In this document: piece after piece, positions 10,087-62,043 of the stretch
Position numbering within the stretch: position 1 is the stretch's first letter
Layout of the letters: each line of letters begins with the position of its first letter
Source of the DNA: an uncultured Acidimicrobiia bacterium
Lineage (GTDB): Bacteria > Acidobacteriota > Vicinamibacteria > Vicinamibacterales > UBA2999
Direction: 5' to 3'
Assembly (NCBI GenBank): GCA_963784445.1
Contig: CAWARO010000002.1
Location: forward strand, 563,733-627,732
DNA: 64,000 nucleotides
The notes under the pieces: model-generated
What the model saw: the letters and a program-made list of their open reading frames with translations, nothing else
What the model was told of the DNA's origin: nothing
Databases searched by the model: none
Translations under genes and position numbers: made by a program

Positions 10087-11305
10087 GGAGCACACTTGCC
10101 GGGATCCGGGAACCGGGAACCGGGATCGTGGTGCTCGCGATTCTGATAACCCTCGCTCATGAGGTGATTGCCCAGGATCCAAAACGGATCCCGGATCCCG
10201 GATCCCGGATCCCGAACGTCCAGGCCGTCGACCCGCTGCGCTGCTGGCGTCAATCGAGCGCGGGTGCGGTGACGATCGGCGAAGCGTTCACCGTCACGGT
10301 GACGTGCGCGGTGTTCGAGTCGGCGGACGCGCAGGTCGTGCCGGATGAATCCCGGCTCAACGTCGCCTCGATCCAGATGGCGCCATTCGAAATTCTCGGC
10401 GGCGCGCACCCGCCTGACGTGCGTCGGGGATCGCGACGCTTCTTCCAGTACCGACTATCAGCTCCGCATCATCAGCCGCGACGCCATCGGTCACGACGTC
10501 AACGTGCCGCCGTTGACGATCTCCTATCGCGTCCACAGCCGCGTCGGCGCGGCCGCGAAGCTTGAAGGCCGCGATTTGTCCTACGTGTTGCCGGCAATGC
10601 CCATCCGGGTCCTGTCGCTCGTGCCGGCGGATGCCACGGACATTCGCGATGCTTCGGAGGCCAGCCTCGCCACCGTGGACGCGTGGCGTTCCAGATCGCG
10701 CCGGTTCGAGCTGCTGGCGCTCGCGCTTGCCGCCACCGCGGCGGTGATGCTCGTGCTTGCGGTCGTGCCGCTGGCGCGGCGCGCGCGCGCGACGACGAGC
10801 GCCGGTCCCGAGCTGATTCCCGATCGCGCGGTCCTGACACGGGCAGCCGACGCACTGTCGGACATCCAGATGCGCGCCACGCGCGATGGCTGGACCGACG
10901 ACATCGTCTCGGAGGCGCTGGCGGCCATTCGCCTCGTGGCCGCGGCGACGATCGGCCGGAGCGTGAGTCAGCGGCCGCTTGGCAAAGACGGCGTGGTGCC
11001 CGACGGACGGTTGCTCGTGCGCTTTGGCCGGCTGCGATCGGTGTCGAGTAACCGTTTCGAGCCCGGTCACCGCCGACGAGGTCGGCCGATCGGCGATTCG
11101 CGACGCCACGTCCATGACGGTGACGCGCGGTCATCACCTCGAGGGCCTGCAGTCGGGGCTCGCGGATTTCACCGCCGCCTTGTATCGCCAGTCGCCGTCG
11201 CGTGAGGCCGTGGTGCTGAATGAGGCGGTGCGTCACGCGATCAGCGTGGCGAGGGACGTGGCCGCCGAGCGCAACTGGTGGAGTACACGATGGGCGCGGC
11301 GCTAG
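10083..11305 (+). CDS. BatD-like membrane protein, reading frame broken twice
   Basis: ATG 10083 overlaps the MoxR stop (ATGA). Three consecutive frames each carry high-GC3, protein-like sequence: ...TIGEAFTVTVTCAVFESADAQVVPDESRLNVASIQMAPFEILGG; then DYQLRIISRDAIGHDVNVPPLTISYRV...LLALALAATAAVMLVLAVVPLARR; then VTADEVGRSAIRDATS...AVRHAISVARDVAAERNWW. The breaks lie near 10410-10455 and 11040-11055. The BatD assignment rests on architecture (Ig-like half plus central TM) and operon position only. Confidence 0.55.
10099..10214. repeat. Large inverted repeat of GGGATCC-type heptamers (4 + 4 units, 57-nt spacer)
   Basis: The left arm is ccgggatccgggaaccgggaaccgggatc (10099-10127). The right arm is cggatcccggatcccggatcccggatcccg (10185-10214). 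The arms are reverse-complementary. Confidence 0.8.
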
Positions 11306-35600: not shown

Positions 35601-36373
35601 GCCAGTTGCTGCGCATCCAGCCGAAGGGCCAGCGCGATCTCGGACGGCTTGCGCTGGTGGCGGGCGCCGCGCTCGCGTTCCTGACGGTGGCGATTCCGTT
35701 ACAGCTGCGGCAGCAGTGGATCACGATTGGGTGGGCCCTCGAAGGCGCCGCGGTTGCGTGGCTCTACACCCGCATTCCGCATCGCGGTTTATTGCTCGCC
35801 TCGGTTGGCTTGCTCGGCACCGTCTTCGTGCGCCTCGCGCTCAATCCGTCGGTGTTCGTCTACGAACCGCGCGGCGAGATGCGCATCATCAACTGGTATC
35901 TCTACACCTACGTGGTCGCCGCGCTCGCGATGGGTGTGGCGGCGTGGTTCCTCTCGAAGACCGACGATCAGCTCCCGGGCATGCCGCGGCCGCGGCACTT
36001 GCTGCCAGCCGCTGCGGGTATCCTGTTGTTCCTGCTCCTGAACATCGAGATCGCCGACTACTATTCGACCGGCCCCGAGATCCTGTTTCGCTTTGGATCG
36101 AGCATCCAGCAGGACCTGACCTATACGATCGCGTGGCTGATCTTTGGCATCATCACGCTGGCGGTCGGCATCATTTGGAAAGTACGGCCGGCGCGCGTGA
36201 CCGCCGTGGCGCTGATCGCCGTGACCGCGTTCAAGTGTTTCCTCTACGACCTCGGTTCGCTCGGCGGGTTGTATCGCGTCGGCGCATTCGTCGGGTTGGC
36301 GGTGTCGCTCGCGCTCGTGTCCCTGGCGTTACAGAAATACGTGCTGGCGCCCGAAAAGGAGGCCGCACTATGA
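32610..36373 (+). CDS. DUF2339-like giant polytopic membrane protein, frame broken near 32905-32915
   Basis: The N-terminal TM is followed by a coiled coil (ARVDDLEARIALQDDQIFKLSNQLHKLKQ), a Pro-rich linker and then more than 25 TM helices. The first ORF stops at 32939 inside the Pro-rich linker. The next frame is open from 32909 (ASSPPPPPPPVVKPASVVPPEIPK...). Confidence 0.8.
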
Positions 36374-38419
36374 CACGCCGTTTCTTGACGCTGATCGCGG
36401 TGACGGCCACCACCGCTTCGTTGTTGGCGCAGGGGACGGCCGGACGGTTTCAGCGTGAGCGCAACGCCGAGGTGACCACGCCTGGCCAGCAGCGGCTGGA
36501 CGTCGACGTGGCATTGCTGCAGGGATCGCAGCCATTCACGGTGATCAGTCCGGGCGAGCGCTTCATCGCTGCCGGTGGCCTGAACGACCTGCGCTTGTTC
36601 TCCGCAAACGGCCCGGAGATCCCGTATCTACTGGTCCCGCCATCACCCGATGTGCCCCAGTTTGTCTCGGGCCGCGTGTTGCCGATCACGGCCACGGACA
36701 CGCCGAATGTGAAGGCGAGCGGTTTCGAAGTGGATTTCGAAACCGTCGGAGTCATCGACGCGATCGATCTCGGCCGGGTACGAGCACCATTCCTCAAACG
36801 TTTCAGGCTTGAAGGGAGCGGCGACCGCTCGCGCTGGACGCAGCTCATTGCCGAAGGTACGGCCTTCAGCCTTCCTGCGGAACAACTGGCGCTCACGCGG
36901 ATCGAGTTCGAGCCGGGTGAGTTCCGGTTTGTCCGCGTCACTTGGGACGACACGAACAGCGCGCGTGTGGCCCCGCCGGATGTGGTGACCGCGAGACGTG
37001 TGACGCTATCGTCTTCGGGACCGATCCTCCGGGCGCCGATCACGGTCGCACAACGGCCAAGCGAGCCAGGTCGCAGCCGATTTCGGCTGACATTGCCCGC
37101 CGCGCGGCTGCCGATCGTCGCGCTTGAATTGACGGTGGGCGGCGGCCATTTGTCGAGAACGGCCACGGTGCTCGAGGCCTCGCTGGTTGGCGAGCAGGCG
37201 CAGCCGCAGATCATCGGCAACGCGCAGCTGGTCCGCGTGATCCAGGACGGCATCAATGCGGACGCGCTGCGCATCCCGATTCGGCAGCCGCGCGAGCCGC
37301 AGCTCGACTTGGTGGTGGACAACGGCGACAATCCACCGCTTCTGCTGGAAGGTGTGACGGCGGTGTTCGCGGAACTGCCGTGGATCTATTTCGAGGCCGC
37401 GCCGGGCACCGTGGTGGCGCGCTTCGGCGATCCGAAACTGGCGGCGCCGCGATACGACCTCGAAGCGGTTCGCGACACGATTCCAACGACGCCCGCGAAG
37501 GCGACGTGGCGTGCCGAACCGCCGCGGACCCTGGCTCCCGAATCCGAAGGTCTGCCGATGCCCGATGTCGGCGGCCCGTTGACCACTGATGGTTTCGAGT
37601 ACACGCGGGAAATTCCCGCGGGCCCCGCGGGATTGATCACCATTCCGCTCGATGCGGCAGTGATGGCGCACAGTGGTATCAGCTCGCGCCGCCTGACCGA
37701 TCTGCGCGTAGTCGATCGCAGCAGCCTGCAGGTGCCGTATCTGCTCGAGAAACGCGACGAACCGCTGATCGTCGATACGACGATGGAGCGGCGTGATCTG
37801 CCGTCGACGGTTCAGGCGCCTGGCGGCCGCATCACGTCGTACGCGGTGCGATTGCCCTATCAGGCGTTACCGGAGGCCAGGCTGGTGCTCAGCACACAGG
37901 CGCGGGTGTTCAAGCGCTCGGTGACCCTCAGTAGCGTTGCGCCTGCGGCCGAGCGCCGCCCGGCGCGGTTGGTCACGCACGGCAACGTCACCTGGGTCCA
38001 TGCGGACGAGGCGATGGCCGCACCCACGGTCACGTTTCCGCTGCCTGAGTCGATCGAGGGTGATTTGTTCCTGATCGTCGAAGAGGGCGACAACCAGCCG
38101 TTGCCGATCGAGAAAGCAACGATCCTCCTGCCCTCGGTACGCAATGCGACTATTCCGGCGCCCCGATCTGCCGCTGCGCTTGATCTACGGCAAGGACCGT
38201 GTGCCGGCGCCGCGCTACGACCTGCAATTGCTTGCCCCGCAATTGATGGGACGCCTCGCGGAGGAAGTGGTGCCTGGTCCGGAACAACGCTTCGGGGAAT
38301 CCGCCTCGACGAGTGATGTCGAGATGGTGCAGCCGGTGGTGTTCTGGTCGGTGCTGGCGCTCGCCGTGCTCGTGCTGCTCGGCCTCGTGGTGCGGCTGAT
38401 GCGGCGCGAAGCGGTGTAG
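36370..38419 (+). CDS. DUF3999-like secreted protein, frame broken near 38135-38150
   Basis: ATG 36370 overlaps the DUF2339 stop (ATGA). The signal peptide is MTRRFLTLIAVTATTASLLAQG. After ...ATILLPSV the protein continues in another frame as RLFRRPDLPLRLIYGKDRVPAPRYDL... and ends with a TM (VFWSVLALAVLVLLGLVV). DUF2339/DUF3999 adjacency is a known pairing. Confidence 0.7.
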
Positions 38420-38425
38420 CGCCGC

Positions 38426-39865
38426 CTACTTGCCGGTCGTCCTGTACGCAGCCAGCACCTTCGACAGCTCGGCCCTCGCCGACGCATGCGCTGGATCGGC
38501 AGCGAGGTTTCGCGTCTCCCCCGGATCGCGCGTCATGTCAAACAGCTGCGTGCCCGCGTTGCCCCCGTCCCACTCGATATAGCGATATGCCGCTGAGCGC
38601 ACCGCGTAGCCGTTCCGAATCTGCGTGAACGCGTACGGCTTGACCGAGCGCGACGGATCGTCGAGGAGCGGGCGGAGGCTGGTCCCCTCGATCTCCGCCG
38701 GCGGTGTCAGCCCGGCGAGGTCGGCCAATGTGCGATAGAGATCGACGAGCTCGGCCAGGCCGGCGGTCACGCGTCCTTTCCCAGCCGCGCCCGGCGCGGC
38801 GATCACGAGCGGCACGCGCGCGCTCTTCTCGAACAAGCTGGTCTTCTGCCACAAGCCGTGATCGCCGAGGTGGTAGCCATGGTCGCTGGTGAAGATCACG
38901 ATCGTGCGATCCGCGAGCCCCAGTCGATCGAGCGCCTTCAGGACCACGCCGACCTGTGCGTCCATCAGGCTCGTCGAGGCGCGGTATGCACGAATCGCCT
39001 CGCGTTTGCGTGTGTCATCCAGTTTGTCTTCCACCGCCCGCGCGCTGGCATACGCGTCCGCCGGCACGCGCGCGCGGTCGTCATCGCTGAGGCTGGGCAG
39101 CGTCACGCGACTCGCATCGTACTGATCGAAGTACGGCTTTGGCGCGACGAAAGGCGTGTGCGGCCGATAGAAGCCCACCCCCAGGAAAAAGTGACGCTTC
39201 TCCTTCGCGAAGCGCTCGAGCAGCCGGACCGCCTCGTTCGCGGCAATGCCATCGGTCTGCTCTGAATCCGGCGCCTCGTCTGCCAGCCAGCTGAGCGTCG
39301 CGCCAAAGTTACCCGGCTCACCGATCGTGGTGATGCGGTCGTGCGCCTCGCGATCGTGTCCGCGTGGATTGATGGTCACGTCCCACGAGCGATAGTCGTC
39401 CAGGCTCGACGTGCCGATGTCGCCCGGCACGCCGTAGTGATAGAGCTTGCCGATGCGCGCGGCCACGTAGCCGTTGCTCTTGAACAACTGCGGCAGCGTC
39501 ACGGCCGCGGGCAGTTTCTCGCGGAGGTGGGGAGACATCGGCCGCGCGGGCGCGGGGTTGGCCAGCACGCCGGTCGAGTTCGGCCGCCGGCCGGTCAGGA
39601 ACGACGAGCGGCTGGGACTGCAGAGCGGGAACTGGGAGTAGGCGCGATCGAAGCGCACGCCGCGAGCGGCAAGCGCGTCGATGTTCGGGGTCCTGACGGG
39701 CGCGCCGTAGACGCCGAGGTCGACGTTCAGATCGTCGGCGACGATCAGCAACACGTTCGGGGCACTTGGTGGGGGCGGAGGCGGAACCGGTTGCGCGTAT
39801 GCACCCGGGGCACACGCGGCGAGGATCGCAACCAAGAGGCAGCGGCGCATCATGGCGCCCATCAT
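38426..39865 (-). CDS. Cys-type sulfatase (formylglycine-dependent)
   Basis: After a signal peptide come LLIVADDL, the FGly motif LCSPSRSSFLTGR (39608-39622) and IVIFTSDHGYHLGDHG. Confidence 0.9.
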   Translation of the reverse strand: MMGAMMRRCLLVAILAACAPGAYAQPVPPPPPPSAPNVLLIVADDLNVDLGVYGAPVRTPNIDALAARGVRFDRAYSQFPLCSPSRSSFLTGRRPNSTGVLANPAPARPMSPHLREKLPAAVTLPQLFKSNGYVAARIGKLYHYGVPGDIGTSSLDDYRSWDVTINPRGHDREAHDRITTIGEPGNFGATLSWLADEAPDSEQTDGIAANEAVRLLERFAKEKRHFFLGVGFYRPHTPFVAPKPYFDQYDASRVTLPSLSDDDRARVPADAYASARAVEDKLDDTRKREAIRAYRASTSLMDAQVGVVLKALDRLGLADRTIVIFTSDHGYHLGDHGLWQKTSLFEKSARVPLVIAAPGAAGKGRVTAGLAELVDLYRTLADLAGLTPPAEIEGTSLRPLLDDPSRSVKPYAFTQIRNGYAVRSAAYRYIEWDGGNAGTQLFDMTRDPGETRNLAADPAHASARAELSKVLAAYRTTGK

Positions 39866-39884
39866 AGGCCCTACAGGCTCATCC

Positions 39885-42422
39885 TCAGCGCCCGGTTCGC
39901 ACGCGGCTGCCTTGCATCACGAACGCCAGCTCGCGCGGGTCGCCTGGGCGGTCGGGCGCCACCGTGTCGGACGTCAATCGCAAATCGTTGAGACCCGAAC
40001 GCGTTGCTGAAGCCGGCGCTTCGATCCGGCATTCGGTCCACGCCCCCGGCGGCAAGGTGCAGGACGACAGCTCAACACCATTGAGGGACGCGCGAATGGC
40101 CGCTCCGTTGGCGTGCGCCGCCCTCAGCCGCAGCAACAACCGCACGTCAGCGGGCTGTTCCATCCGCCACAGGGTTGACGAGGTCCTGGTCGACCACCGG
40201 TACTGCTGCGTGCCCGCGTGTTCGGCCATGTGCCACCCGGAACCAAAATGCTCGTCGTAATCGAACCCCACATCGAGCGCCCCCGTTGCCGGCAACGTCG
40301 TCACCGGGGCCTGACAGACGCGCACTGCGTGGTCGCTCGATTCGAGCGTGGCGGTGACGGCCGCATTCGGAATCGGGACTGACAACCGAAACACCGATCG
40401 CGTTCCCGGAACCGCATTGAGGATCAGTCGTGACGTGGCGGCAGCGACCGACGCCTCGCCGCGGCCGTTCGACAAGCGATGGCGCCATTCACCCGGCCGG
40501 GCCGCACCTTCGAGCGTGATCTCCGCAGTCCCGCGGCCATCGACGGTGGCATACCAGCCGCCTTCGGCGAGGATCCTCGATACGTCGACGCGCTGCGTGG
40601 TTCGCAACGTCTCGCATGGCACTTCACCACGAAGGATGAACGTCGCGGGAGGAATTTGCGCGCCGGGCTCCTCATTCGGCTTGAATTGCCAACGGCCGAC
40701 GACCCGTCCGGACGGGTTGATCACCACCACCACCAGCCCCCTGTCGATGGCCGCCAATACATCGTCGCCCCACATTACTTGCGGACCGTCGTCGTTGGCG
40801 GAGATCGTGAGCGGTCGGCCGCCAAGCTCGCGGCTGATCGACACCGTCGAGTCGTGTTGCTCGAGCTCGAGATCGGGCTGCCGGATCGTCCACGACACAG
40901 CGCCGAAGTTGGCGGGCCGTCCGCTTTGGTTACGAGCGGGCGTCGGCAGCCATTCGAAGGGCAACAACCTGCCGGCCGACGCCATGAGGACGTTCGTGCC
41001 GGCAGGCTGCTCCGCCATCCATCGCTCGAAGGGTTGCCACGATAGTCCCGTCGGTTCGAAACGAAGTCCGTACGCGGTCAGCGAGGGGATCGCCGCATCG
41101 AGAGCGAACACCGGCCGCCCTTCAGCCGCGGCGGCCTTGACGCGAATGGCATCGTTGTCGAGCAGGCGCGGGTTCGGATCCGGATCGTACTCGTTGGAAT
41201 AGTGCAGGTAATTGAGGATGCGGGCGATGAAGTAGTTGTGCGCCACGACGGCGCTGTTGGGAGGCAAGCGGCGGTACATCATCCTCAATGCGGGGCCTTC
41301 GCCCGGATTGAGCACAGGGGCCAGCTTCGGATAAATGGCGAACAGATTCCAGACTGGAAGTAGCAGCGCCGCCGCCGCGACGAGATTCACCGCGCGGTCG
41401 CCCGGCCGGATTGCCCGCACGATCGTTTCGAGCCCGTACGCCGCGAGCGCCCACAGCAGGACGATCACCGGGGTGATGAACCCGACGACGTCGCCCCACA
41501 GGTTGGCGATCATGGCGAGCGTCCCGGCCGCTCCGCCAGCCACCAGCAAGGCCTCCCAGTTCCTGCGCCATGCGGCGATCCCTATCCCGATCACCACGAG
41601 GATCACCGTCACCGTCCCCATGTGGACGCGCAATCCCTCGAGCAGCATCGGCACTTCGATGCCGACCACCTTGTCGGCCGCCTGATAGAACCGCGCCCAC
41701 GACACGTCGCGCGCGATGATCACGTCGTAGATGCCCCGGATGGTCGTGGCGCGCGCTTCGAGATAGGGCGCCCCCTGGATGGTGCGAAGCGCGATGAACC
41801 CGTACTGCGCTACGCCGATCGCGCCAATCACGGCGGCGGTGGCCAGCACCCGCGGCCGCAGCACCGACCGATCCCTGGCGATCCCGTAGATCAGCGCCGC
41901 CGGAAGTAGACCGACGATGGTGAGGTGGTTGCCGAGGCCGGCGGCGAAGACGATGCAGGCCGCATAAAGACGCCACAAGGTGCCTGTCTGGATCCACGCG
42001 ATCAGCAAATAGATGGTCCACGCCGACATCAAGGCGGCCAGCGTGTAGACCTCGGCGGTGATCGCATTGCTCCACACCGGAAAGCCGGTGGCGGCCGCGA
42101 GCGCCGCCACGGCTGCCAGCGATCGGGACACGCTCACTCGCCGGGCGATCAGGAAAATCAATACGCACGAGAAGACGCCGCAGATCGCCGAGAACAGGTT
42201 GACGCGATAGGCGAGCGTGCCAAGAGGCACGCGCGTGAACACGTACGTGGCGAGGGTGTAGAACGGGTAACCCGGCGTGTGGGCGGTGCCGAGGACCTGT
42301 CCGAGAAACTGAAACTTCGGTGAATCCTCGGTGCCGCCGACGTCGGGCCTGAGCGTGGCGAGAAAGAGTGCGCCCGTCAGTAGGGCGATCGCGATCGCCC
42401 ACACGACATCGCGCCTGTTCAC
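39885..42422 (-). CDS. DUF2723-like (TMEM260/GT-C-type) polytopic membrane protein
   Basis: The GTG start overlaps the upstream stop. The N-terminal signature is EDSPKFQFLGQVLGTAHTPGYPFY. About 10 TM helices are followed by a large soluble C-terminal domain. Confidence 0.8.
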   Translation of the reverse strand: MNRRDVVWAIAIALLTGALFLATLRPDVGGTEDSPKFQFLGQVLGTAHTPGYPFYTLATYVFTRVPLGTLAYRVNLFSAICGVFSCVLIFLIARRVSVSRSLAAVAALAAATGFPVWSNAITAEVYTLAALMSAWTIYLLIAWIQTGTLWRLYAACIVFAAGLGNHLTIVGLLPAALIYGIARDRSVLRPRVLATAAVIGAIGVAQYGFIALRTIQGAPYLEARATTIRGIYDVIIARDVSWARFYQAADKVVGIEVPMLLEGLRVHMGTVTVILVVIGIGIAAWRRNWEALLVAGGAAGTLAMIANLWGDVVGFITPVIVLLWALAAYGLETIVRAIRPGDRAVNLVAAAALLLPVWNLFAIYPKLAPVLNPGEGPALRMMYRRLPPNSAVVAHNYFIARILNYLHYSNEYDPDPNPRLLDNDAIRVKAAAAEGRPVFALDAAIPSLTAYGLRFEPTGLSWQPFERWMAEQPAGTNVLMASAGRLLPFEWLPTPARNQSGRPANFGAVSWTIRQPDLELEQHDSTVSISRELGGRPLTISANDDGPQVMWGDDVLAAIDRGLVVVVINPSGRVVGRWQFKPNEEPGAQIPPATFILRGEVPCETLRTTQRVDVSRILAEGGWYATVDGRGTAEITLEGAARPGEWRHRLSNGRGEASVAAATSRLILNAVPGTRSVFRLSVPIPNAAVTATLESSDHAVRVCQAPVTTLPATGALDVGFDYDEHFGSGWHMAEHAGTQQYRWSTRTSSTLWRMEQPADVRLLLRLRAAHANGAAIRASLNGVELSSCTLPPGAWTECRIEAPASATRSGLNDLRLTSDTVAPDRPGDPRELAFVMQGSRVRTGR

Positions 42423-43544
42423 CGGCTGGATTTTCGCTTGTCGAGGTACGCCGCTTTGAGCGCGTCCACGAAACGCTGATCGACGAGGCCCGGGGGATTG
42501 CCCTGGTAATTGAGGCTCTTCTCGGCGCGAAACTTGTCGACGGCCGCAATGACCTCGTCGTCGAACACGGCGTAGTCGCGCGTGTAGCTCGCCGAGGCCT
42601 GCTTCGCCTCCGCCAGCGCCTTTTCGTAGGCGGCCGGATTCGACTTGCGCAGCTCCTGCATCTTCGGCGAGTTGGCATTGGGCGGCGCCGATGGGAAGGT
42701 GGCGAGGGACGGACGCCAGTACCCGAGCGCGTGCAGCATGCGCTTGAGCTCGACCACGTCCTGGCCTTCAATCCGCGAGAATGTTCGATACCCGAGGCGT
42801 CGTCCCGTCGTGTAGTAAATCCGCTTCATCTCGCCGACGGGCTCGGCATGCTCGCCGACTTCGATCGCGAGCGCAATATGATCGCCGCCGCGGCCGGGAT
42901 CATTCGGATCGGCGATCTTGATTGCCGCCGACTGCAGATTCCCGAAGCGGCGATCGCCGCCCTTGTTCTGGCCGGCTTCCATCGCGAGGATCATGCGCTC
43001 CGCGAGCGGCACGCCCGCGCCTTCCATGGATTCGAACGTCGCCGCCACGGCCTCCACCACCTCGGGGCCAACCATGATGTTGGCCTGCACGGTGTAGTTC
43101 AGCCCCTGCTTCGAGCCGGCCCAATTGCCGTTGCTCTTGCCGGTGTGCGCGGCCGAGCGGCCCTTCATGTCGATCATGCCGAGCTGACGCGACTCGCGCT
43201 GCTGGTCGTCGGACAGCAGCTGCGCGATCGCGGCGGTTGGCTCGACGTCCTTCGCCATCAGGTCGAGTCCGCGCGGTCCGTATTCGACCACGGTCGACGC
43301 CTGCGTGCAGACGGCGCCGATGCCGGCGCGCACGTGAGGCACGGCGCGGCCCACAAACGGTACGCGAGTGGTGACGGCGGCGCCGGATTGACCCGTCGCG
43401 GGGTCTATCGCGCACAGCGAGAACGTCGAATACTGCGGGTTGCCGTCGTCGTTGATCGTGACGCCGTCCGCCGCACGCTGCTGGCGCAGCCGGCGAGATC
43501 GATGCCATGACGACGATTCCGAATAACGCAATGAGTGTTTTCAT
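42419..43544 (-). CDS. DUF1028 (Ntn-hydrolase-like) protein with C-terminal peptidoglycan-binding-like domain, frame broken near 43470-43496
   Basis: The signal peptide MKTLIALFGIVVMASISPAAPAA (ATG 43544) is in one frame. The body ...ADGVTINDDGNPQYSTFSLCAIDPATGQSGAAVTTRVPFVG... is in another. The C-terminus has a PG_binding-like pattern (GQDVVELKRMLHALGYW ... VIAAVDKFRAEKSL). Confidence 0.7.
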
Positions 43545-43562
43545 CGTCGCACCTTGTGCACG

Positions 43563-44924
43563 TTAACTAACCCACAGCCCTCGCGTGATCGTCGGCGACC
43601 CCGCGGCTTCAAACCAGTCGATGCCTTCGCTGACGAGGTCGAACTTCAAGGCGTAACGCCCCGGCTGCTCGGGCGCGGGAATGTCGATCTTCACCTGCGT
43701 GTGGTGTCCGGGCGGCAGATCGTCCGGCAACCACGCGCGCGCGTAATCGCGATCGATCAACGAGCCGTCCGGCGCAACCAGCTGCGCGCCCAACCGCACC
43801 AACCGGCGTCCCGAACTGGTGTTCTTCTTGAACGGCCGCGACGACAGGTTCCTCACCTTTGCGGTCAGCGACAACGTGGTGGCCGGCTTGACCAGGAACG
43901 GCAGGTCGGGCAGCACCGTGTGCACGTCGATCTCGGCGCGCGGCGTCCCTCCGGCAATCGCGTTGCCGAGCCCGCTGTTGTCCCAGATCTCGTGCCGGAT
44001 TCGTTCGTAGTCCGGCGTCCCCGGCGCGAATCGCCGCGAGAAGGCATTCTCGGGATGATCGGTGATCTCCCAACACAATCGATCGACGCCGATCTCGGCA
44101 GCCATCGCGCGGGCCTTCTGCATTTCCTCGTCGCTATCGTTCCAGTTGAACAGGATGTAGCGCCAGTTCACGAACGGCAGGTCGCGGCCGGTCTTGGCGC
44201 GCTCGTCGAGCAGCGCGCGCAGGTTGGCAATCGCCTTGTCAAAATTGCCGCGCTGACGGTATTGAACGTACGTTTCCTGCGATGCGCCATCGAGCGAGAA
44301 GGTGACTTCATCGATCCCCGAACGCGCCAGCTGCCGGACTTTCTCTTCGTTAAATGCCAGCCCGTTGGTGCTGGTGTAGAGATAGATGTGCGGAAACTTG
44401 GTCTTGATGTACTCGCACATCTCGACGGCGCGCTTGTGGAGGAACGCTTCGCCGTAGTTGAAGAAGTCGATGCGGCCGAGGGTTGGCCCGGCTTCGTCGA
44501 TCACCTTCGTAAACAGATCGAAGTCGAGCATGCCGGCCTGACGCGTGCGCGTGATGCCGGTTTCAGGCGCGCAGACCGCCTGGTTGCAGGAAATGTTACA
44601 GGCCGCAGTGCACTCGATATACAGCCGGCCCGGGATCGGGCTGACGTTCAGATCGCGCTGCGGGGGCGCCTGGTCGTCGGACAGCGGCAGCTTGAGTGGG
44701 CAGTCGCCGCAAAAGCTCGATCCGCCCTGGTTGATGTCGGCCCGCAGTTGCGAAGCCACGGGCCCTTGCCAGATGCCGGCAATCGACGTGGTGCGCGCGT
44801 CGCCGAGCACGCGCTTCGCGTACGGGTCGGCGCAGCCGCACACCATGCGGCCGTCGCACAACATCACGCCGATCTGCCAGGGCCACGAGCAGGTATAGCG
44901 CGTCGCGAGATAGTTCTCTGACAT
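43563..44924 (-). CDS. Radical-SAM-like enzyme with N-terminal SPASM/twitch-like Cys domain and C-terminal beta-sandwich-like domain
   Basis: The N-terminal Cys pattern is C12..C23DGRMVC29GC31...C72GDC75, with SPASM-like context (WPW, CDG..C, LGD....IW, CxxC). The core is LYIECTAACNISCNQAVC (44571-44615), FFNYGEAFLH, YTSTNG, TFSLDG. The C-terminus is PGRYALKFDLVSEGIDWF. Confidence 0.75.
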   Translation of the reverse strand: MSENYLATRYTCSWPWQIGVMLCDGRMVCGCADPYAKRVLGDARTTSIAGIWQGPVASQLRADINQGGSSFCGDCPLKLPLSDDQAPPQRDLNVSPIPGRLYIECTAACNISCNQAVCAPETGITRTRQAGMLDFDLFTKVIDEAGPTLGRIDFFNYGEAFLHKRAVEMCEYIKTKFPHIYLYTSTNGLAFNEEKVRQLARSGIDEVTFSLDGASQETYVQYRQRGNFDKAIANLRALLDERAKTGRDLPFVNWRYILFNWNDSDEEMQKARAMAAEIGVDRLCWEITDHPENAFSRRFAPGTPDYERIRHEIWDNSGLGNAIAGGTPRAEIDVHTVLPDLPFLVKPATTLSLTAKVRNLSSRPFKKNTSSGRRLVRLGAQLVAPDGSLIDRDYARAWLPDDLPPGHHTQVKIDIPAPEQPGRYALKFDLVSEGIDWFEAAGSPTITRGLWVS

Positions 44925-45200
44925 CTAGCCTTGGGCCGACTTTCCTAGTCTGCGAAGGTACGATTCGAGCTTGTCGTTCTGGTACTTCACCTGGTTGAGA
45001 AAAATACTTTCGGCGAGATACTCGCGCCGCTCGTCGTCAGTGAGCTGTTCGATCAGGTAATCGATCTCGCGCTTCATGTCCTCGAACGATCGCTCCAGCT
45101 CCTTGCGGGCCGTCACCTCGTGATAGAGCGTTTCGAGCACCGCGAGCAGGTCGCCGTCGAGAACGATCTCTGCGCCCGACGTGGTCTTGATGCTTCTCAT
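44925..45200 (-). CDS. Hypothetical acidic helical protein (91 aa)
   Basis: The stop TAG (44925-44927) directly abuts the radical-SAM ATG (44922-44924). It has no Cys and coiled-coil-like sequence (ARKELERSFEDMKREIDYLIEQLTDDERREYL). Confidence 0.6.
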   Translation of the reverse strand: MRSIKTTSGAEIVLDGDLLAVLETLYHEVTARKELERSFEDMKREIDYLIEQLTDDERREYLAESIFLNQVKYQNDKLESYLRRLGKSAQG

Positions 45201-45239
45201 GATTGAGCACCCGTCTGCGTAATCTGCGCCATCGGTGGC

Positions 45240-45581
45240 TTAGCTCCCGAAGCTCTGGAGGGCGCCTGCCTCATCCGGAAACATCTTCAGGAAATTGTGC
45301 GCGCCGGTCATGGTCAGCATCGTCTCGACGCGCTTGTTGACGCCGGAGAGGCGCAGCTGGCCGCCGGCCGCGGTGGCCTGGCGGTAAAGGTCCATCAGGC
45401 AGCCGATCGTCGCCGAGTCGACATACGTGACCTTCGACAGGTCGATCATCACCTTCTTGTCGCCGCTGGTGAGCAGGCCCATCACGGCGCCGGAGAAATC
45501 CGCGAGCAGCGGATACATCAGGCGCGTTTCGCCAACCCGGACGATGGCGATGCCTTGAGCACGATCAGTAGACAGATTCAT
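45240..45581 (-). CDS. STAS-domain anti-sigma-factor antagonist
   Basis: 113 aa with the SpoIIAA/RsbV-like pattern VMIDLSKVTYVDSATIGCLMDLY...GGQLRLSGVNKRVETMLTMTG. Its ATG overlaps the sigma gene stop (ATGA at 45578-45581). Confidence 0.85.
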   Translation of the reverse strand: MNLSTDRAQGIAIVRVGETRLMYPLLADFSGAVMGLLTSGDKKVMIDLSKVTYVDSATIGCLMDLYRQATAAGGQLRLSGVNKRVETMLTMTGAHNFLKMFPDEAGALQSFGS

Positions 45582-46174
45582 TCCGTTACCCCTTCATCCG
45601 TTTCTCGAATGCGCTGCACCTGGCGGGCCAGCTCCGTACGCCCGCGGTTGATGCGTGATTTCACGGTGCCTTCCGGCAACCCCAGTTGATCGGCGATCTC
45701 CTGGTACGACAACTCCTGGATGTCGCGCTTGACCACCGCTTCGCGCAGCGTCGGCGGCAGTTCGGCCATCGCCTTGCGCAGCAACTCGACCCGGTCGGCC
45801 TGCTCGAGCGCCTGATAGGCGCTTTGGCCCGGCGCCGCCGGCGTCAGCTCGCCGGCGTCGACGTCGCGATCGATCGTCTCGCGCTCCTTGCGCACGCTGC
45901 GATAGTGATCGATGCACAGGTTGCGGCTGACGCTGACCAGCCAGGTCTGGAAATTGGCGCGCCGATCGAACGTGTGCAGCGACTTGAAAATCTTGAGAAA
46001 GATGTCCTGCGTCAGATCCTCGGCTTCGTCGTGCCGGCCGGTGAATTTGTACGCGATGTTGAACACTTTCCGCCGGTGCTGCCGAACGATGTCTTCCCAA
46101 GCCACCTGATCGCCGCCAAGGCAACGCTGGATGAGCGCGTCGATCGCATCAGTAGGGACCGAAGGGTCAGACAT
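45578..46174 (-). CDS. ECF-type sigma-70 family RNA polymerase sigma factor
   Basis: ATG 46174 (MSDPSV...). Region 2 is DLTQDIFLKIF and FQTWLVSVSRNLCIDHYR. Region 4 is LSYQEIADQLGLPEGTVKSRINRGR. There is no region 1 or 3. Confidence 0.9.
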   Translation of the reverse strand: MSDPSVPTDAIDALIQRCLGGDQVAWEDIVRQHRRKVFNIAYKFTGRHDEAEDLTQDIFLKIFKSLHTFDRRANFQTWLVSVSRNLCIDHYRSVRKERETIDRDVDAGELTPAAPGQSAYQALEQADRVELLRKAMAELPPTLREAVVKRDIQELSYQEIADQLGLPEGTVKSRINRGRTELARQVQRIRETDEGVTE

Positions 46175-46242
46175 CGCTAACGAGGCTCCGCCACCGACCA
46201 TCCCGCAGGCGCCATCGGCTCCGCCTCGCTGGGGCAGCGTTT

Positions 46243-46267
46243 CTTGCCCCGCCTCCGGCGGGGCGAG
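46243..46267. promoter_or_regulatory. 11-bp-stem hairpin in the sigma/lysA divergent region
   Basis: cttgccccgcc-tcc-ggcggggcgag lies ~70 nt upstream of the sigma-factor start. No U-tract follows on either strand. Confidence 0.3.
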
Positions 46268-46328
46268 ACGTCCTGAAGGGTTCATGAAGTTGATACGAGA
46301 ACATGCGCCGGTCCCTTCATGACGTCTG

Positions 46329-47654
46329 GTGAACCGGGAACGACTCGTCCCCGACTCGAAATCATACCATCCCGTCCCGCCAAGCTCGGCCGCATGTCAC
46401 GATAGAATCGGGGGAGTGGCTGCCACCACTCCCTCGACACTTTCAGACCAGAGGACCGCGCGGCTCGGCGACATCGCCGCGTCGGCCGGCACGCCCTGCT
46501 ACGTCTACGACGCCGGCGGCATTCGCGCCGCCTACGCCACCCTCGATCGCGCCTTCGACGGCTATCCGCACGCGATTCACTACGCGCTGAAGGCCAATTC
46601 GTCGCTGGCGGTGGTGCGACTGCTGCAATCGCTCGGCAGCCACGCCGACGCCAATTCGCTTGGCGAAGTGGACGTGGCGCTGCGGTGCGGTTTCCGTCCT
46701 GATCAGATCGTGTTTACCGGCGTCGGTAAGAGCGCCGCCGAGATCGATCGCGCGGTGTCGCTCGGGTTGCTCGCGATCAACGTCGAGTCGCCGGGGGAGC
46801 TCGACCGGATCGATCAGCGCGCCGTCGCGCAGAACGTCCGGGCGCGGGTCGCGCTGCGCGTCAATCCCGACATCGACGCGAAGAGCCACCCGCACATCTC
46901 CACGGGGCTCAAGTCGAATAAGTTCGGCGTGCCGATCGACGAAGCGCCGGCGCTGTTTCGCGAGATGGCGGGGCGGCGCGGCTTGCAGCCGGTGGGCGCG
47001 CACGTCCACATCGGCTCGCAGATCACCTCGCTCGAGCCACTCGAGAAGGCGGCGCAGGCGGTGGTGTCGCTCGCGCATGCGCTCCGTGGTGAGGGCATCG
47101 AGCTGCAGCATCTCGACATGGGCGGCGGTCTGGGGATTTCGTACGACGGCAGCCCGGTGGCCGACCCGGCGGCGTATGTGCGCGCCCTCGTCGGCGCGAC
47201 GCGCGGCAGCGGCTTGAAGGTGGCGATCGAACCCGGCCGCGTGCTGGTGGGGCCTGCCGGCGTGCTGCTGACGAAGGTCGTGGACGTCAAACAGTTTCCC
47301 GGTGCGAAGCGTTTCGTCGTGGTGGACGCGGGCATGACCGAGCTGATGCGGCCGGCGCTGTACAACGCCTATCACCGCATCGAGCCGCTGGTGCGCCGCG
47401 ACGGTGACGAGACCATCGTCGATATCGTCGGCCCGATCTGCGAGAGCACCGACGCCTACGCGCGCGATCGCGCGTTTCCGCCTGTGCACGTGGACGATCT
47501 GCTCGTGGTCGCCGACGTAGGCGCCTACGGCGCCGCGATGGGGCATACCTACCTGCGCCGTCCGCTGCCGCCTGAGGTGATGCTCGACGGCGGCGACTGG
47601 CGTATCATTCGCCGTCGTCAGACGTTGGACGAACTGCTGTCTCTCGAGGAATAG
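46329..47654 (+). CDS. lysA: Diaminopimelate decarboxylase
   Basis: Motifs include GTPCYVYD, HYALKANS (PLP Lys), DMGGGLGI, EPGR and CESTD. The start is uncertain (GTG 46329 or GTG 46416). Confidence 0.9.
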   Translation: MNRERLVPDSKSYHPVPPSSAACHDRIGGVAATTPSTLSDQRTARLGDIAASAGTPCYVYDAGGIRAAYATLDRAFDGYPHAIHYALKANSSLAVVRLLQSLGSHADANSLGEVDVALRCGFRPDQIVFTGVGKSAAEIDRAVSLGLLAINVESPGELDRIDQRAVAQNVRARVALRVNPDIDAKSHPHISTGLKSNKFGVPIDEAPALFREMAGRRGLQPVGAHVHIGSQITSLEPLEKAAQAVVSLAHALRGEGIELQHLDMGGGLGISYDGSPVADPAAYVRALVGATRGSGLKVAIEPGRVLVGPAGVLLTKVVDVKQFPGAKRFVVVDAGMTELMRPALYNAYHRIEPLVRRDGDETIVDIVGPICESTDAYARDRAFPPVHVDDLLVVADVGAYGAAMGHTYLRRPLPPEVMLDGGDWRIIRRRQTLDELLSLEE

Positions 47655-47656
47655 TA

Positions 47657-48256
47657 TTGGCGCGCGGACACCTGATAGCGATCGAGGGACTAGATCAAAG
47701 CGGAAAGCAAACACAGGCGGAGCGTTTGCTCGCGGCCTTCCGCGCGAAGGGGCACGCAACCGAGTTCCTCACTTTTCCCGCCTACGAAACGGCCGTCGGC
47801 GACGAGATCGATAAGGCGTTGCATGGCCAGCGCGATTATCAGCCCGATACGCTGCAGCTGCTGTACATCGCGAATCGCTTCGAGTTCAAACCCAAGATTG
47901 AGTCGTGGCTTGCGGCCGGGACGATGGTGGTGTGCGATCGCTATCTCGCGTCGAGCATCGCCTACGGCGAGGCGCAAGGCGTTGATGGCGCGTGGCTGAC
48001 CGAGATCCAGCGCTTCCTGCCGCAACCGTCGCTGACCATCCTGCTCGACATCCCTCCGGACGCCTCGCTGAACCGGAAGCAAGTGGCGCGCGACAAGTTC
48101 GAGCGCGATTTGCCGCTGCTGGGCCGGGTCCGGGAAAGCTACCTGCGCCAGGCCGGGCGATCGAAAGACTGGGTTCGCCTCGAAGGCCATCAGGACAAGG
48201 ACGCGGTGTCGGCCGCGGTGACTAGCGCCGTGCGGTCACGACTCGGGCTGCTGTAA
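47657..48256 (+). CDS. tmk: dTMP (thymidylate) kinase
   Basis: The TTG start lies 2 nt after the lysA stop. The P-loop is IAIEGLDQSGKQTQ, followed by a DRY motif (VCDRYLASS). Length is ~199 aa. Confidence 0.85.
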   Translation: MARGHLIAIEGLDQSGKQTQAERLLAAFRAKGHATEFLTFPAYETAVGDEIDKALHGQRDYQPDTLQLLYIANRFEFKPKIESWLAAGTMVVCDRYLASSIAYGEAQGVDGAWLTEIQRFLPQPSLTILLDIPPDASLNRKQVARDKFERDLPLLGRVRESYLRQAGRSKDWVRLEGHQDKDAVSAAVTSAVRSRLGLL

Positions 48257-49073
48257 GGGCTCTCACTTCTGTCACGCCCGCGCTTCGCAGGACGCGCGCA
48301 CAACTTTCTAAGGTTGCCCCGGTCGTTGCGACGTCGTCTATCAGCACCACGACGCCGGGATCCGGGATCCGGAATCTGGGATCCGGACGAAATGCAAAGG
48401 CATCCCTCACGTTCGCTTTGCGCTCATGTTTCGGCAGATCGATTTGAGATTGCGTGAAGACAATGCGCTTCAGCAAGGGGAGAACCGGCGGCCCGAGATG
48501 CAAGGCGAGATCGTGCGCTTGATTGAATCCGCGACTGTATTCACGTCGCGGGTGCAACGGAACCGGCACCACGCAATCCGCATCACGTAACAACTCCGCG
48601 CCCCGCTCACGCATCAGCGCACCGAGGCGCGGCGAAATCGAGCGGCGCCGATCGTATTTCAACGCGTGAATGATGTCCTTCATCCGGCCGTCATATTCGT
48701 CCACGGCGGCCGCCCAGCTGATGGCGTGCGAGGCGTCGAAGCGGACCTCCAGCGCCGTCAGGCGCCGAATGCTGGCCCAGCACACCTCGCACACCGACCC
48801 GTCGAGCGGGTGACGCAGGCGCTCGCGACAGGCCGCGCATGGCGGCTCGAATAACGACGAAAGAAGAAGGTTGGTGAGCCTACGCCACGTCGGGGAACTC
48901 GATGCGCGTGGCGCTGCCCCAGAGGCGATCGAGACCGTAGAAATCGCGGGCGTGCTTCGAGAAGACGTGGACGACGAAATCGAAGTAGTCGAGGAGCACC
49001 CACTCGGCGCGGGCGTAGCCTTCCACCAGCGATGGGCGCTGCTTCTGGGCCTTGAGGGCGTCTTCCACCGCAT
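48222..49073 (-). CDS. comF: ComF-family phosphoribosyltransferase-like protein (start unresolved)
   Basis: Two CxxC pairs (CAACRERL...CEVCW) and the PRT motif VVVLIDDVATTGATL are present. Conserved sequence begins near 48885. Upstream codons overlap rsfS out of frame and look non-coding. No ATG, GTG or TTG exists between 48885 and 49073. Confidence 0.7.
   Translation of the reverse strand: MRWKTPSRPRSSAHRWWKATPAPSGCSSTTSISSSTSSRSTPAISTVSIASGAAPRASSSPTWRRLTNLLLSSLFEPPCAACRERLRHPLDGSVCEVCWASIRRLTALEVRFDASHAISWAAAVDEYDGRMKDIIHALKYDRRRSISPRLGALMRERGAELLRDADCVVPVPLHPRREYSRGFNQAHDLALHLGPPVLPLLKRIVFTQSQIDLPKHERKANVRDAFAFRPDPRFRIPDPGVVVLIDDVATTGATLESCARVLRSAGVTEVRALTAARVVTARR
48355..48389. repeat. 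Five GGGATCC-type heptamers inside the comF coding sequence
   Basis: ccgggat ccgggat ccggaat ctgggat ccggacg, translated on the minus strand as RPDPRFRIPDPG immediately before the PRT motif. Confidence 0.75.
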
Positions 49074-51113: not shown

Positions 51114-51187
51114 GGGGTCGGGGATCAGGGATCAGGGATCAGGGATCAGCGCACGTACCGATCCCCGATCCCCGATTCCCGATCCCT
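51114..51187. repeat. Long imperfect hairpin of GGGATC(A/G) heptamers between rpmA and obgE
   Basis: The left arm is ggggtcg gggatca gggatca gggatca gggatca. The loop is gcgcacgtac. The right arm is cgatccc cgatccc cgattcc cgatccc. Confidence 0.75.
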
Positions 51188-61971: not shown

Positions 61972-62043
61972 GCACTCTGCGCACTTTGCGCACCCTGCGC
62001 ACTCTGCGCACTTCGTGCACTCTGTGCACCCTGCGCACCCTGG
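61972..62043. repeat. 9-nt tandem repeat x8 (GCACYYTGC) immediately after a stop codon
   Basis: gcactctgc gcactttgc gcaccctgc gcactctgc gcacttcgt gcactctgt gcaccctgc gcaccctgg. The array starts one base after TAG (61969-61971). Confidence 0.9.

What the first reader, a model, noticed from the sequence alone, without database searches (positions are those of the whole stretch)
38426..46174. Seven-gene cluster: ECF sigma, STAS, 91-aa ORF, permuted radical-SAM, DUF1028, DUF2723, sulfatase
All seven genes are on the minus strand with operon-like junctions. These are sigma/STAS ATGA (45578-45581), a 38-nt gap, and the small ORF's TAG abutting the radical-SAM ATG (44925/44924). Next come an 18-nt gap, the DUF1028 stop overlapping the DUF2723 GTG (42419-42422), and a 19-nt gap to the sulfatase. 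The combination is a dedicated sigma factor with a partner-switching-type antagonist, an Fe-S radical enzyme, a secreted Ntn-hydrolase-like protein with a peptidoglycan-binding domain, a GT-C-type membrane protein related to protein O-mannosyltransferases, and a secreted Cys-type sulfatase. It matches no pathway I can name. It looks like a regulated envelope-modification or maturation system.
Basis: partly seen in the sequence, partly recalled or inferred. Interest (0 to 1): 0.7.

Follow-up and report, generated by a model that had tools for sequence, protein, structure and literature searches.

The report
Conserved sigma–STAS–small protein–radical SAM operon
The seven genes are really a four-gene operon conserved across a common order of soil bacteria (a sigma factor, its likely switch proteins and an unusual iron-sulfur enzyme), followed by three unrelated genes that come and go between relatives.

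Summary
The seven minus-strand ORFs, their domains and their tight junctions are real. Two corrections apply: the DUF1028 gene carries a 1-nt frameshift, and its peptidoglycan-binding domain scores below threshold. The seven genes are not one conserved system.

In 80 related Vicinamibacterales (Acidobacteriota) species:
- Sigma, STAS and the 91-aa ORF lie directly upstream of the radical SAM gene in 70 of 72 loci. The ATGA overlap is present in 57 of 71.
- DUF1028 follows in 16 of 67 loci and the GT-C gene in 8 of 58.
- The sulfatase follows in 0 of 55. It is absent even from the closest relative.

The real feature is a four-gene operon next to lysA-tmk that is more conserved than lysA. It encodes:
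- an ECF sigma factor;
- a STAS protein with an invariant phosphorylatable serine;
- an uncharacterised β-hairpin plus two-helix protein;
- a circularly permuted twitch-type radical SAM enzyme with a CX3CX4C motif and a C-terminal β-sandwich.

My best reading, which is inferred, is a kinase-less partner-switch-like module controlling the sigma factor. It is co-transcribed with a cytoplasmic enzyme that probably acts on a sugar or envelope precursor. No function is shown. Interest is moderate.

The parts
46361..46370 (-). Conserved extended -10-like promoter box ATGGTATGAT (TG-n-TATGAT) for the sigma operon. No conserved -35 element.
   Evidence: a box matching RTGRTATNNT lies 33-42 nt upstream of the sigma ATG in about 40 of 71 loci. 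In the window it sits 186 nt upstream because of an insertion. Sequence.
46179..46325 (-). 147-nt insertion in the sigma 5' leader, specific to this genome. It contains a 66-nt palindromic, REP-like element at 46216-46281.
   Evidence: L001 is contiguous across this point; the 66-nt core recurs at L001 8402-8469 (91%) and in L026 (81%); its fold is not more stable than shuffled sequence (z = -0.44).
45578..46174 (-). ECF-type sigma factor, 198 aa, with the conserved start MSDPS.
   Evidence: Sigma70_r2 77 bits, r4_2 65 bits. TIGR02937 scores 121.7 against a 42.9 cut-off, and no equivalog cut-off is reached; present in 70 of 72 loci at 67-97% identity; conserved start codon.
45240..45581 (-). 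Single-domain STAS protein, 113 aa, translationally coupled to sigma through an ATGA overlap. The DS56ATIG motif is invariant.
   Evidence: STAS 55.7 bits. TIGR00377 scores 50.4, just under its 53.45 cut-off. YVDSATIG is invariant in 56 species; the 4-nt overlap occurs in 57 of 71 loci.
44925..45200 (-). orf91, a conserved uncharacterised protein with an N-terminal β-hairpin followed by two long helices. It is a candidate non-kinase partner of sigma and STAS.
   Evidence: 4675 homologue clusters, none with a Pfam domain; conserved over its whole length, with no invariant Cys and a variable tail. AF2 pLDDT 86.6, strands 2-5 and 11-14, helices 16-51 and 55-90; no PDB match; covaries with sigma and STAS more than with the rSAM.
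43563..44924 (-). Radical SAM enzyme, 453 aa, with three parts: an N-terminal twitch/SPASM domain (12-76), a core with invariant C109-x3-C113-x4-C118, and a C-terminal NBR1-like β-sandwich (about 330-453).
   Evidence: domains and motif. (AF2 pLDDT 82, pTM 0.80). (fold matches). (BtrN match and permutation); 73-90% identical homologues across Vicinamibacterales.
42419..43544 (-). Secreted DUF1028 (Ntn-hydrolase-like) gene, frameshifted at about 43483/43484 in this sequence. It is an add-on limited to one lineage, not part of the core.
   Evidence: DUF1028 201.8 bits; a 1-nt insertion relative to orthologues in 11 related loci; present in 16 of 67 loci. PG_binding_1 below threshold.
39885..42422 (-). 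GT-C-fold membrane glycosyltransferase (TMEM260-like/PMT_2), coupled to DUF1028 by a GTGA overlap. It is limited to one lineage and diverges fast.
   Evidence: PF11028 67.3 bits, PMT_2 30.9 bits; present in 8 of 58 loci, always with DUF1028; 71% nucleotide identity to L001, against 85-88% for the flanks.
38426..39865 (-). Secreted Cys-type sulfatase (CSPSR motif). It is a single-gene indel in this strain or lineage.
   Evidence: Sulfatase 159 bits; present in 0 of 55 loci; window 38413-39912 is replaced by about 197 nt in L001.

Best explanation
The finding joins three separate units.

(1) A four-gene operon that is a core genome feature of Vicinamibacterales. It runs sigma (45578-46174), STAS, orf91 and rSAM (ending at 43563), and is transcribed divergently from lysA-tmk. 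Its promoter is a housekeeping-type extended -10 box. I infer that sigma activity is set after translation by a partner-switch-like module. The STAS protein carries an invariant phosphorylatable Ser56. The 91-aa protein (β-hairpin plus helical hairpin) takes the place of the missing RsbW-type anti-sigma factor. Any kinase or phosphatase input would be encoded elsewhere. The fourth gene is a cytoplasmic, circularly permuted twitch-type radical SAM enzyme with a C-terminal β-sandwich. It most likely acts on a sugar, cyclitol or envelope precursor and is made together with the sigma module.

(2) A DUF1028 plus GT-C envelope gene pair, added downstream in one sub-lineage.

(3) A sulfatase gene inserted in this strain's lineage.

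Shown here: the gene content, the permutation, the cysteine motifs, the conservation pattern and the promoter box. Inferred: who binds whom, and the enzyme's substrate.
For: Synteny across 80 species:
- Sigma, STAS and orf91 upstream of the rSAM in 70 of 72 loci.
- lysA and tmk divergent in 56 of 58.
- DUF1028 in 16 of 67, GT-C in 8 of 58, sulfatase in 0 of 55.
- Genes downstream of the rSAM in other species are unrelated: AraC-type regulator, hybrid kinase, phosphoesterase, flavoprotein, or convergent genes.

Operon junctions are conserved: ATGA overlap in 57 of 71 loci, median STAS-orf91 gap 2 nt, median orf91-rSAM gap 23 nt.

Constraint is strong. Mean pairwise amino-acid distances are sigma 0.21, STAS 0.23 and rSAM 0.25, against lysA 0.31 and tmk 0.34.

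The extended -10 box is conserved and no conserved -35 is seen. The STAS DSATIG motif is invariant.

After removing the lysA/tmk background, distances covary as follows: sigma-STAS 0.41, STAS-orf91 0.39, sigma-orf91 0.35, and rSAM with the others 0.15-0.25.

orf91 is a confidently folded small protein with no known relatives.

Evidence on the rSAM:
- Its only sequence match among solved structures is BtrN, arranged in permuted order. The BtrN auxiliary-cluster positions at 188, 232 and 235 align with C12, C72 and C75.
- Its C-terminal domain matches NBR1 and the β-sandwich domains of glycosidases.
- Full-length homologues at 36-46% identity sit among GT4 glycosyltransferases, a polysaccharide deacetylase, GDSL esterases, a sulfotransferase-Wzt_C fusion and CDP-alcohol phosphatidyltransferases.
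Against: - No anti-sigma domain is detectable in orf91, and no complex prediction could be run.
- No RsbW-type kinase or PP2C phosphatase is in the operon.
- The covariation differences are modest and were not tested for significance.
- Distant rSAM homologues lack sigma and orf91 neighbours, so the link between enzyme and regulator holds only for Vicinamibacterales, and its logic (input or output) is unknown.
- The contexts of distant homologues vary, so the substrate class is a weak inference.
- In this genome all seven genes could still be read as one transcript, because no terminator was found.
Confidence: 0.55

Rival explanations
1. One reading: all seven genes form one sigma-controlled envelope-modification or maturation system.
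For: The genes share a strand, have gaps of at most 39 nt or overlapping codons, and no terminator-like site lies in any of the gaps between the seven genes. DUF1028 (secreted), GT-C and the sulfatase (secreted) are envelope proteins. The rSAM family has links to glycan genes.
Against: The sulfatase is in 0 of 55 related loci, GT-C in 8 of 58 and DUF1028 in 16 of 67. The sulfatase is a clean indel against the closest relative. DUF1028 is frameshifted here. Other species carry unrelated genes after the rSAM.
Confidence: 0.12
2. orf91 is the substrate of the radical SAM enzyme. On this view the pair is a precursor and maturase, as in RiPPs or protein-derived cofactors, and sigma and STAS only regulate expression.
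For: orf91 lies immediately upstream of the rSAM, abutting it in the window, with a median gap of 23 nt across species. SPASM/twitch enzymes are often peptide maturases, and the best NCBIfam hits are maturase families, all far below their cut-offs. A YEN(D/G) motif is conserved.
Against: - orf91 is conserved over its whole length and folds confidently, while only its short tail varies.
- It has no invariant Cys.
- No RRE or PqqD-like domain was found in the enzyme.
- Full-length rSAM homologues in other lineages have no orf91-like gene upstream.
- orf91 covaries less with the rSAM (0.15) than with sigma and STAS (0.35-0.39).
Confidence: 0.12
3. STAS, possibly together with orf91, regulates the radical SAM enzyme directly rather than the sigma factor. 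This would resemble the STAS proteins that control polysaccharide synthesis enzymes.
For: A partner-switching-like STAS module that directly regulates an exopolysaccharide enzyme is reported in Anabaena. Non-canonical STAS-only proteins are reviewed in PMC8256260. One distant rSAM homologue lies next to two RsbW-STAS pairs and SpoIIE phosphatases (L086).
Against: STAS is translationally coupled to sigma, not to the rSAM. Its strongest covariation is with sigma (0.41, against 0.17 with the rSAM). One such context out of 12 is within chance expectation.
Confidence: 0.13
4. The radical SAM enzyme is an anaerobic sulfatase-maturating enzyme (anSME) that serves the Cys-type sulfatase in the cluster.
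For: The sulfatase has a CSPSR motif. The rSAM has a SPASM-type domain. JGI labels a few distant homologues as AslB-like.
Against: The rSAM is conserved in 80 species, and none of them has a sulfatase within 10 kb. The domain order is permuted and the motif is CX3CX4C. No anSME family appears among the best NCBIfam hits.
Confidence: 0.02

Closest known systems
Partner-switching control of sigma factors (RsbV-RsbW-σB, SpoIIAA-SpoIIAB-σF; for an ECF sigma, Bordetella BtrS with BtrU/V/W)
   Same: A single-domain STAS protein with the conserved phosphorylatable serine in a DS(A/S)xxG context is encoded in the same operon as a sigma factor.
   Different: The operon has no HATPase_c anti-sigma kinase and no PP2C phosphatase. 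STAS occupies the translationally coupled position that an anti-sigma factor usually holds. A novel 91-aa helical protein and a radical SAM enzyme complete the operon.
NepR-PhyR-σEcfG general stress switch of Alphaproteobacteria
   Same: An ECF sigma controlled by a small, helical, non-kinase anti-sigma factor and an antagonist. This is the logic I propose for orf91 and STAS.
   Different: There is no sequence or fold match to NepR or PhyR. The antagonist here is a STAS domain, not a sigma-mimic response regulator. The anti-sigma role of orf91 is untested.
BtrN (butirosin 2-deoxy-scyllo-inosamine dehydrogenase), the prototype twitch-domain radical SAM enzyme
   Same: It is the only significant sequence match among solved structures (E = 6e-9). 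Both the rSAM core and the twitch domain align, including three positions equivalent to auxiliary-cluster cysteines.
   Different: The twitch domain is N-terminal, so the order is circularly permuted. The SAM-cluster motif is CX3CX4C, not CX3CX2C. There is an extra C-terminal NBR1-like β-sandwich. Sequence identity is low and the substrate is unknown.
STAS modules that regulate polysaccharide synthesis directly (Vibrio fischeri SypA/SypE; Anabaena HenR/All4160)
   Same: A STAS protein is genetically linked to an enzyme that is probably related to envelope glycans.
   Different: Those systems do not work through a co-encoded sigma factor. Here STAS is coupled to an ECF sigma gene.
SPASM/twitch peptide maturases with an upstream precursor (PqqE/PqqA, MftC/MftA, anSME)
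   Same: A small ORF lies immediately upstream of a SPASM-type radical SAM gene.
   Different: orf91 is a folded 91-aa protein conserved end to end. The enzyme has no RRE, its domain order is permuted, and no NCBIfam maturase cut-off is approached.

Membership tests
ECF (group 4) sigma factor | Only σ2 and σ4 domains, and a match to the ECF superfamily model | tested here: met
   Sigma70_r2 and Sigma70_r4_2. TIGR02937 scores 121.7 bits against a 42.9 cut-off. No named equivalog cut-off is reached (best is SigE PRK09647, 134 against 265).
ECF (group 4) sigma factor | A recognisable cognate anti-sigma factor encoded next to it | tested here: not met
   the downstream genes are STAS and orf91, and neither has an anti-sigma domain. 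The role of orf91 is only hypothesised.
ECF (group 4) sigma factor | An autoregulatory ECF-type promoter with a conserved -35 (AAC) and -10 (CGT) | tested here: not met
   only an extended -10 box of the TGnTATGAT type is conserved, and the sequence upstream of it varies.
RsbV/RsbW-type partner-switching module | A STAS antagonist with a conserved phosphorylatable serine | tested here: met
   YVDS56ATIG is invariant in 56 species. STAS 55.7 bits.
RsbV/RsbW-type partner-switching module | An anti-sigma serine kinase (HATPase_c) and a PP2C phosphatase in the module | tested here: not met
   neither is among the seven genes; the conserved flanks are lysA, tmk and other housekeeping genes. The rest of the genome was not searched.
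SPASM/twitch radical SAM enzymes | A radical SAM core plus an auxiliary-cluster SPASM/twitch domain | tested here: met
   PF04055 scores 41.5 (cut-off 29.5) and PF13186 scores 28.9 (cut-off 21.5); both parts align to BtrN.
SPASM/twitch radical SAM enzymes | The canonical CX3CX2C motif, with the SPASM/twitch domain C-terminal to the core | tested here: not met
   the invariant motif is C109-x3-C113-x4-C118, also in 36-46% identical relatives; the twitch domain is N-terminal.
NCBIfam NF033640 (N-terminal twitch radical SAM) | A score above the curated cut-off | tested here: not met
   25.8 bits against 170, and the match covers only core residues 143-246.
anSME (sulfatase maturase) | Association with sulfatase genes, plus a C-terminal SPASM domain holding two clusters | tested here: not met
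   0 of 55 loci have a sulfatase; the domain order is permuted; no anSME model is among the listed hits.
RiPP-like precursor and maturase pair | A small precursor with a conserved leader and a distinct core, plus a maturase with a recognition element | tested here: inconclusive
   Adjacency is met.
DUF1028 (Ntn-hydrolase-like) | A Pfam match and an intact ORF with a signal peptide | tested here: inconclusive
   201.8 bits; the signal peptide is out of frame because of a 1-nt insertion, which is either an assembly error or a pseudogene.
GT-C / TMEM260-like glycosyltransferase | A Pfam match above the cut-off | tested here: met
   PF11028 scores 67.3 (cut-off 24.2) and PMT_2 scores 30.9 (cut-off 26.1).
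   only four of the seven genes are conserved together.

The most novel reading that the evidence does not exclude
The radical SAM enzyme is the sensory input of the switch. On this reading it uses its Fe-S clusters and SAM to covalently modify orf91 or STAS. That would tie ECF sigma activity to redox, iron or SAM status. It would be a form of sigma-factor control through radical chemistry with no known precedent, and it would be present throughout an abundant order of soil bacteria.
Probability: 0.1. Interest if true: 0.8.

Novelty: new variant of a known kind. Interest (0 to 1): 0.48.

Why it matters
Vicinamibacterales are among the most abundant soil Acidobacteriota, and almost nothing is known about their regulation. 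This four-gene operon evolves more slowly than lysA and tmk in the 56 species compared. It was found at the same place in 70 of the 72 sampled species with enough upstream sequence to judge. It is therefore probably central to their physiology.

The operon pairs an ECF sigma factor with a STAS protein but no kinase. It adds a small protein with no known relatives and a permuted radical SAM enzyme with a non-canonical cluster motif. Working out how these act together would define a new way of wiring sigma control. It would also assign a function to an uncharacterised radical SAM subfamily that occurs in Acidobacteriota, including Aminicenantes.

The result is also a caution. Tight spacing on one strand in a single genome overstated the size of the functional unit.

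Tried and rejected
- **Defence system:** PADLOC gave nothing relevant.
- **Known RNA elements:** no Rfam hits in 36000-49000.
- **orf91 relatives:** nothing significant in Pfam (one weak PUMA_CC hit below threshold), NCBIfam, PDB sequences or PDB folds. I judged the JGI label 'M32 carboxypeptidase' on homologues to be spurious.
- **orf91-rSAM fusion proteins:** P0329 and P0374 looked like fusions but are frameshift-ridden read-throughs.
- **rSAM as tetraether or lipid synthase:** no such structure appears among the listed PDB fold matches (the 50 best).
- **Leader insertion as a structured RNA:** it folds no better than shuffled sequence.
- **L071 and L079:** these are rSAM copies without the module, and their contexts are uninformative.
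- **Literature:** searches for this gene combination, for N-terminal twitch enzymes and for ECF groups linked to STAS found nothing specific.
- **Terminator and promoter consensus scan:** no enrichment over shuffled sequence.
Full report
**Observation.** The seven ORFs exist on the minus strand as described.

Reading the DNA confirms most of the junctions:
- the sigma/STAS ATGA overlap at 45581-45578;
- the orf91 TAG abutting the rSAM ATG (44925/44924);
- an 18-nt gap from the rSAM stop to ATG 43544;
- the GTGA overlap at 42422-42419;
- a 19-nt gap before the sulfatase.

The STAS-orf91 gap is 39 nt, not 38.

Pfam and NCBIfam confirm the domain calls:
- an ECF-type sigma, passing only the superfamily model TIGR02937;
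- a STAS domain;
- a radical SAM protein with a SPASM hit at residues 12-76 ahead of the core at 105-244;
- DUF1028;
- a TMEM260-like/PMT_2 GT-C protein;
- a sulfatase with a CSPSR motif.

Two corrections are needed:
- ATG 43544 encodes a signal peptide in a different frame from the DUF1028 domain. An alignment with orthologous regions from 11 related loci shows one extra C at about 43483/43484 in the window. Most of those orthologues read through in frame, though L006 also looks frameshifted. The window gene is therefore frameshifted, either truly or through an assembly error.
- The peptidoglycan-binding domain is only a partial match below threshold.

**Origin.** Homologues of the rSAM at 73-90% identity are all from Vicinamibacterales or unclassified Acidobacteriota metagenome-assembled genomes. 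A few of the related genome records are labelled otherwise in the database (cyanobacterium, Acidimicrobiia, Bifidobacteriaceae). The window belongs to a contig of about 1 Mb.

**Conservation test.** A scan of one genome per species returned 410 related loci. I analysed the best 80, all with the rSAM at least 69% identical. tblastn searches with the window proteins gave these counts:

| Gene(s) | Position relative to the rSAM | Loci with it / loci with enough sequence |
|---|---|---|
| sigma, STAS, orf91 | directly upstream, same strand | 70 / 72 |
| lysA, tmk | divergent, upstream | 56 / 58 |
| DUF1028 | downstream | 16 / 67 (only where the rSAM is more than 76% identical) |
| GT-C | downstream | 8 / 58 (always with DUF1028) |
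| sulfatase | downstream | 0 / 55 |

- In the closest relative, L001 (rSAM 94% identical), window 38413-39912 is replaced by about 197 nt. The sulfatase is therefore a single-gene indel.
- Between the window and L001, GT-C is far more diverged (71% nucleotide identity) than its flanks (85-88%).
- In other species the genes after the rSAM are convergent or unrelated: an AraC/GyrI regulator, a hybrid histidine kinase, a metallophosphoesterase, DUF1295, a flavoprotein and a tRNA-binding protein.

The operon ends at the rSAM. The region beyond it varies between species.

**The conserved unit.** Across 71 loci, sigma and STAS overlap by ATGA in 57. The median STAS-orf91 gap is 2 nt and the median orf91-rSAM gap is 23 nt.
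- Sigma, STAS and the rSAM are more conserved than the neighbouring housekeeping genes. Mean pairwise distances are 0.21, 0.23 and 0.25, against 0.31 for lysA and 0.34 for tmk.
- The flanks on the lysA side are core genes: lysA, tmk, comF-like, rsfS, nadD and obg.
- Upstream of the conserved start (ATG 46174, MSDPS...) lies a conserved extended -10-like box (RTGRTATNNT). It sits 33-42 nt from the ATG in about 40 of 71 loci, and no conserved -35 is seen.
- This promoter looks like a housekeeping type rather than an autoregulated ECF promoter. Control of sigma activity is therefore probably post-translational.
- In the window a 147-nt insertion (46179-46325) separates the box from the ATG.

**The proteins.**

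*STAS.* It keeps an invariant YVDS56ATIG motif, the phosphorylatable-serine context of RsbV and SpoIIAA. No RsbW-type kinase or PP2C phosphatase is in the operon.

*orf91.*
- It has thousands of homologue clusters but no family assignment.
- It is conserved along its whole length apart from a short variable tail, and it has no invariant cysteine.
- AlphaFold2 predicts an N-terminal β-hairpin followed by two long helices, with pLDDT 86.6.
- It has no match among PDB folds or sequences.

*rSAM.*
- The AlphaFold2 model has pLDDT 82 and pTM 0.80.
- The C-terminal domain resembles the NBR1 β-sandwich and the β-sandwich domains of glycosidases.
- The only significant sequence match among solved structures is BtrN. 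Query residues 10-76 align to the BtrN twitch domain (187-256), and residues 105-229 align to the BtrN core (28-149). This demonstrates the circular permutation.
- C12, C72 and C75 align with BtrN auxiliary-cluster positions.
- The SAM-cluster motif is an invariant C109-x3-C113-x4-C118. It is also conserved in relatives at 36-46% identity.

**Wider family.** A search without a word index found full-length relatives at 36-46% identity. These belong to Aminicenantes, other Acidobacteriota and candidate divisions. Twelve of their gene contexts contain no sigma or orf91. They include:
- GT4 glycosyltransferase clusters;
- a polysaccharide deacetylase;
- GDSL esterases;
- a sulfotransferase-Wzt_C fusion;
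- CDP-alcohol phosphatidyltransferases;
- an inositol-1-phosphate synthase.

One context (L086) lies beside two RsbW-STAS pairs and SpoIIE phosphatases. Together with the BtrN match, this points weakly to a sugar, cyclitol or envelope-precursor substrate. The association with sigma, STAS and orf91 appears specific to Vicinamibacterales.

**Mechanism.** After removing the lysA/tmk background, pairwise distances covary most among sigma, STAS and orf91 (0.35-0.41). They covary less with the rSAM (0.15-0.25). This evidence is weak and was not tested for significance.

I therefore favour a kinase-less, partner-switch-like trio. In it, orf91 acts as the non-kinase anti-sigma element and STAS as its antagonist, and the rSAM is co-expressed as the module's enzymatic output or input.

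The rival explanations are:
- orf91 is the substrate of the rSAM;
- STAS regulates the enzyme directly, as reported for an Anabaena exopolysaccharide enzyme;
- a sulfatase maturase, which the synteny rejects.

**Novelty.** Sigma control by partner switching and SPASM/twitch enzymes are both known. I found no description of this combination in the ECF reclassification paper or in my other literature searches. The combination consists of an ECF sigma with STAS in the anti-sigma position, a novel small protein and a permuted CX3CX4C radical SAM enzyme, fixed across an entire order. I rate it a new variant of a known kind, of moderate interest. The original seven-gene interpretation is only partly supported.

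Noticed in passing
window 43483-43484 (minus strand), within 42419-43544: The DUF1028 gene has a 1-nt insertion (CC instead of C) in its signal-peptide region, compared with orthologues in 11 related loci. The signal peptide is therefore out of frame with the domain. This is either a pseudogene or an indel error from long-read assembly.
   Followed up: yes
window 46179-46325; L001 8402-8469; L026 19691-19757: A 147-nt insertion lies between the sigma promoter box and the start codon. Its 66-nt GC-rich palindromic core recurs in L001, exactly where the window has the sulfatase, and also in L026. This suggests a small mobile REP- or MITE-like element. Its predicted fold is not unusually stable.
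   Followed up: partly
window 7602-7637, 10099-10214, 48355-48386, 51121-51186, 58790-58832, 61972-62042; and 5-150 nt after the rSAM stop in about 30 of the loci L001-L080: Short tandem arrays with a 7-9 nt period and 3-13 copies, often with a GTGC core, occur near the ends of genes or between genes. They recur directly after the rSAM stop in many species, with a different unit sequence in each species. Their function is unknown.
   Followed up: partly
window 46403-46418 (+ strand): A conserved -10-like TAGAAT box (TATGAT in other clades) lies 7 nt before an in-frame GTG of lysA. The lysA mRNA may therefore be leaderless, and the divergent lysA and sigma promoter region would be about 40 nt wide.
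   Followed up: partly
window 44571-44600 (rSAM residues 109-118): The radical SAM cluster motif is an invariant CX3CX4C rather than CX3CX2C. Most homologues have an extra Cys at position 117. The spacing is also kept in relatives at 36-46% identity.
   Followed up: partly
window 39885-42422 compared with L001 6257-8313: The GT-C gene is only 71% identical in nucleotides to the closest relative, while the flanking genes are 85-88% identical. This fits fast or diversifying evolution of a surface-modifying enzyme, or replacement of the allele.
   Followed up: no
L086 3269-10609: A distant rSAM homologue from a candidate-division genome lies beside two HATPase_c/STAS pairs and two SpoIIE phosphatases. 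This is a second, independent case of this rSAM family sitting next to partner-switching genes, but it may be chance (1 of 12 contexts).
   Followed up: no
L081, L082, L092: Distant rSAM homologues lie next to a myo-inositol-1-phosphate synthase (L081) or CDP-alcohol phosphatidyltransferases (L082, L092). With the BtrN (inosamine dehydrogenase) match, this hints at an inositol or head-group substrate.
   Followed up: no
L071 and L079, 10001-11362: Two Vicinamibacteria loci carry a 70%-identical rSAM without sigma, STAS, orf91 or lysA nearby. They are either paralogues or rearranged loci, and their neighbours are uninformative.
   Followed up: partly
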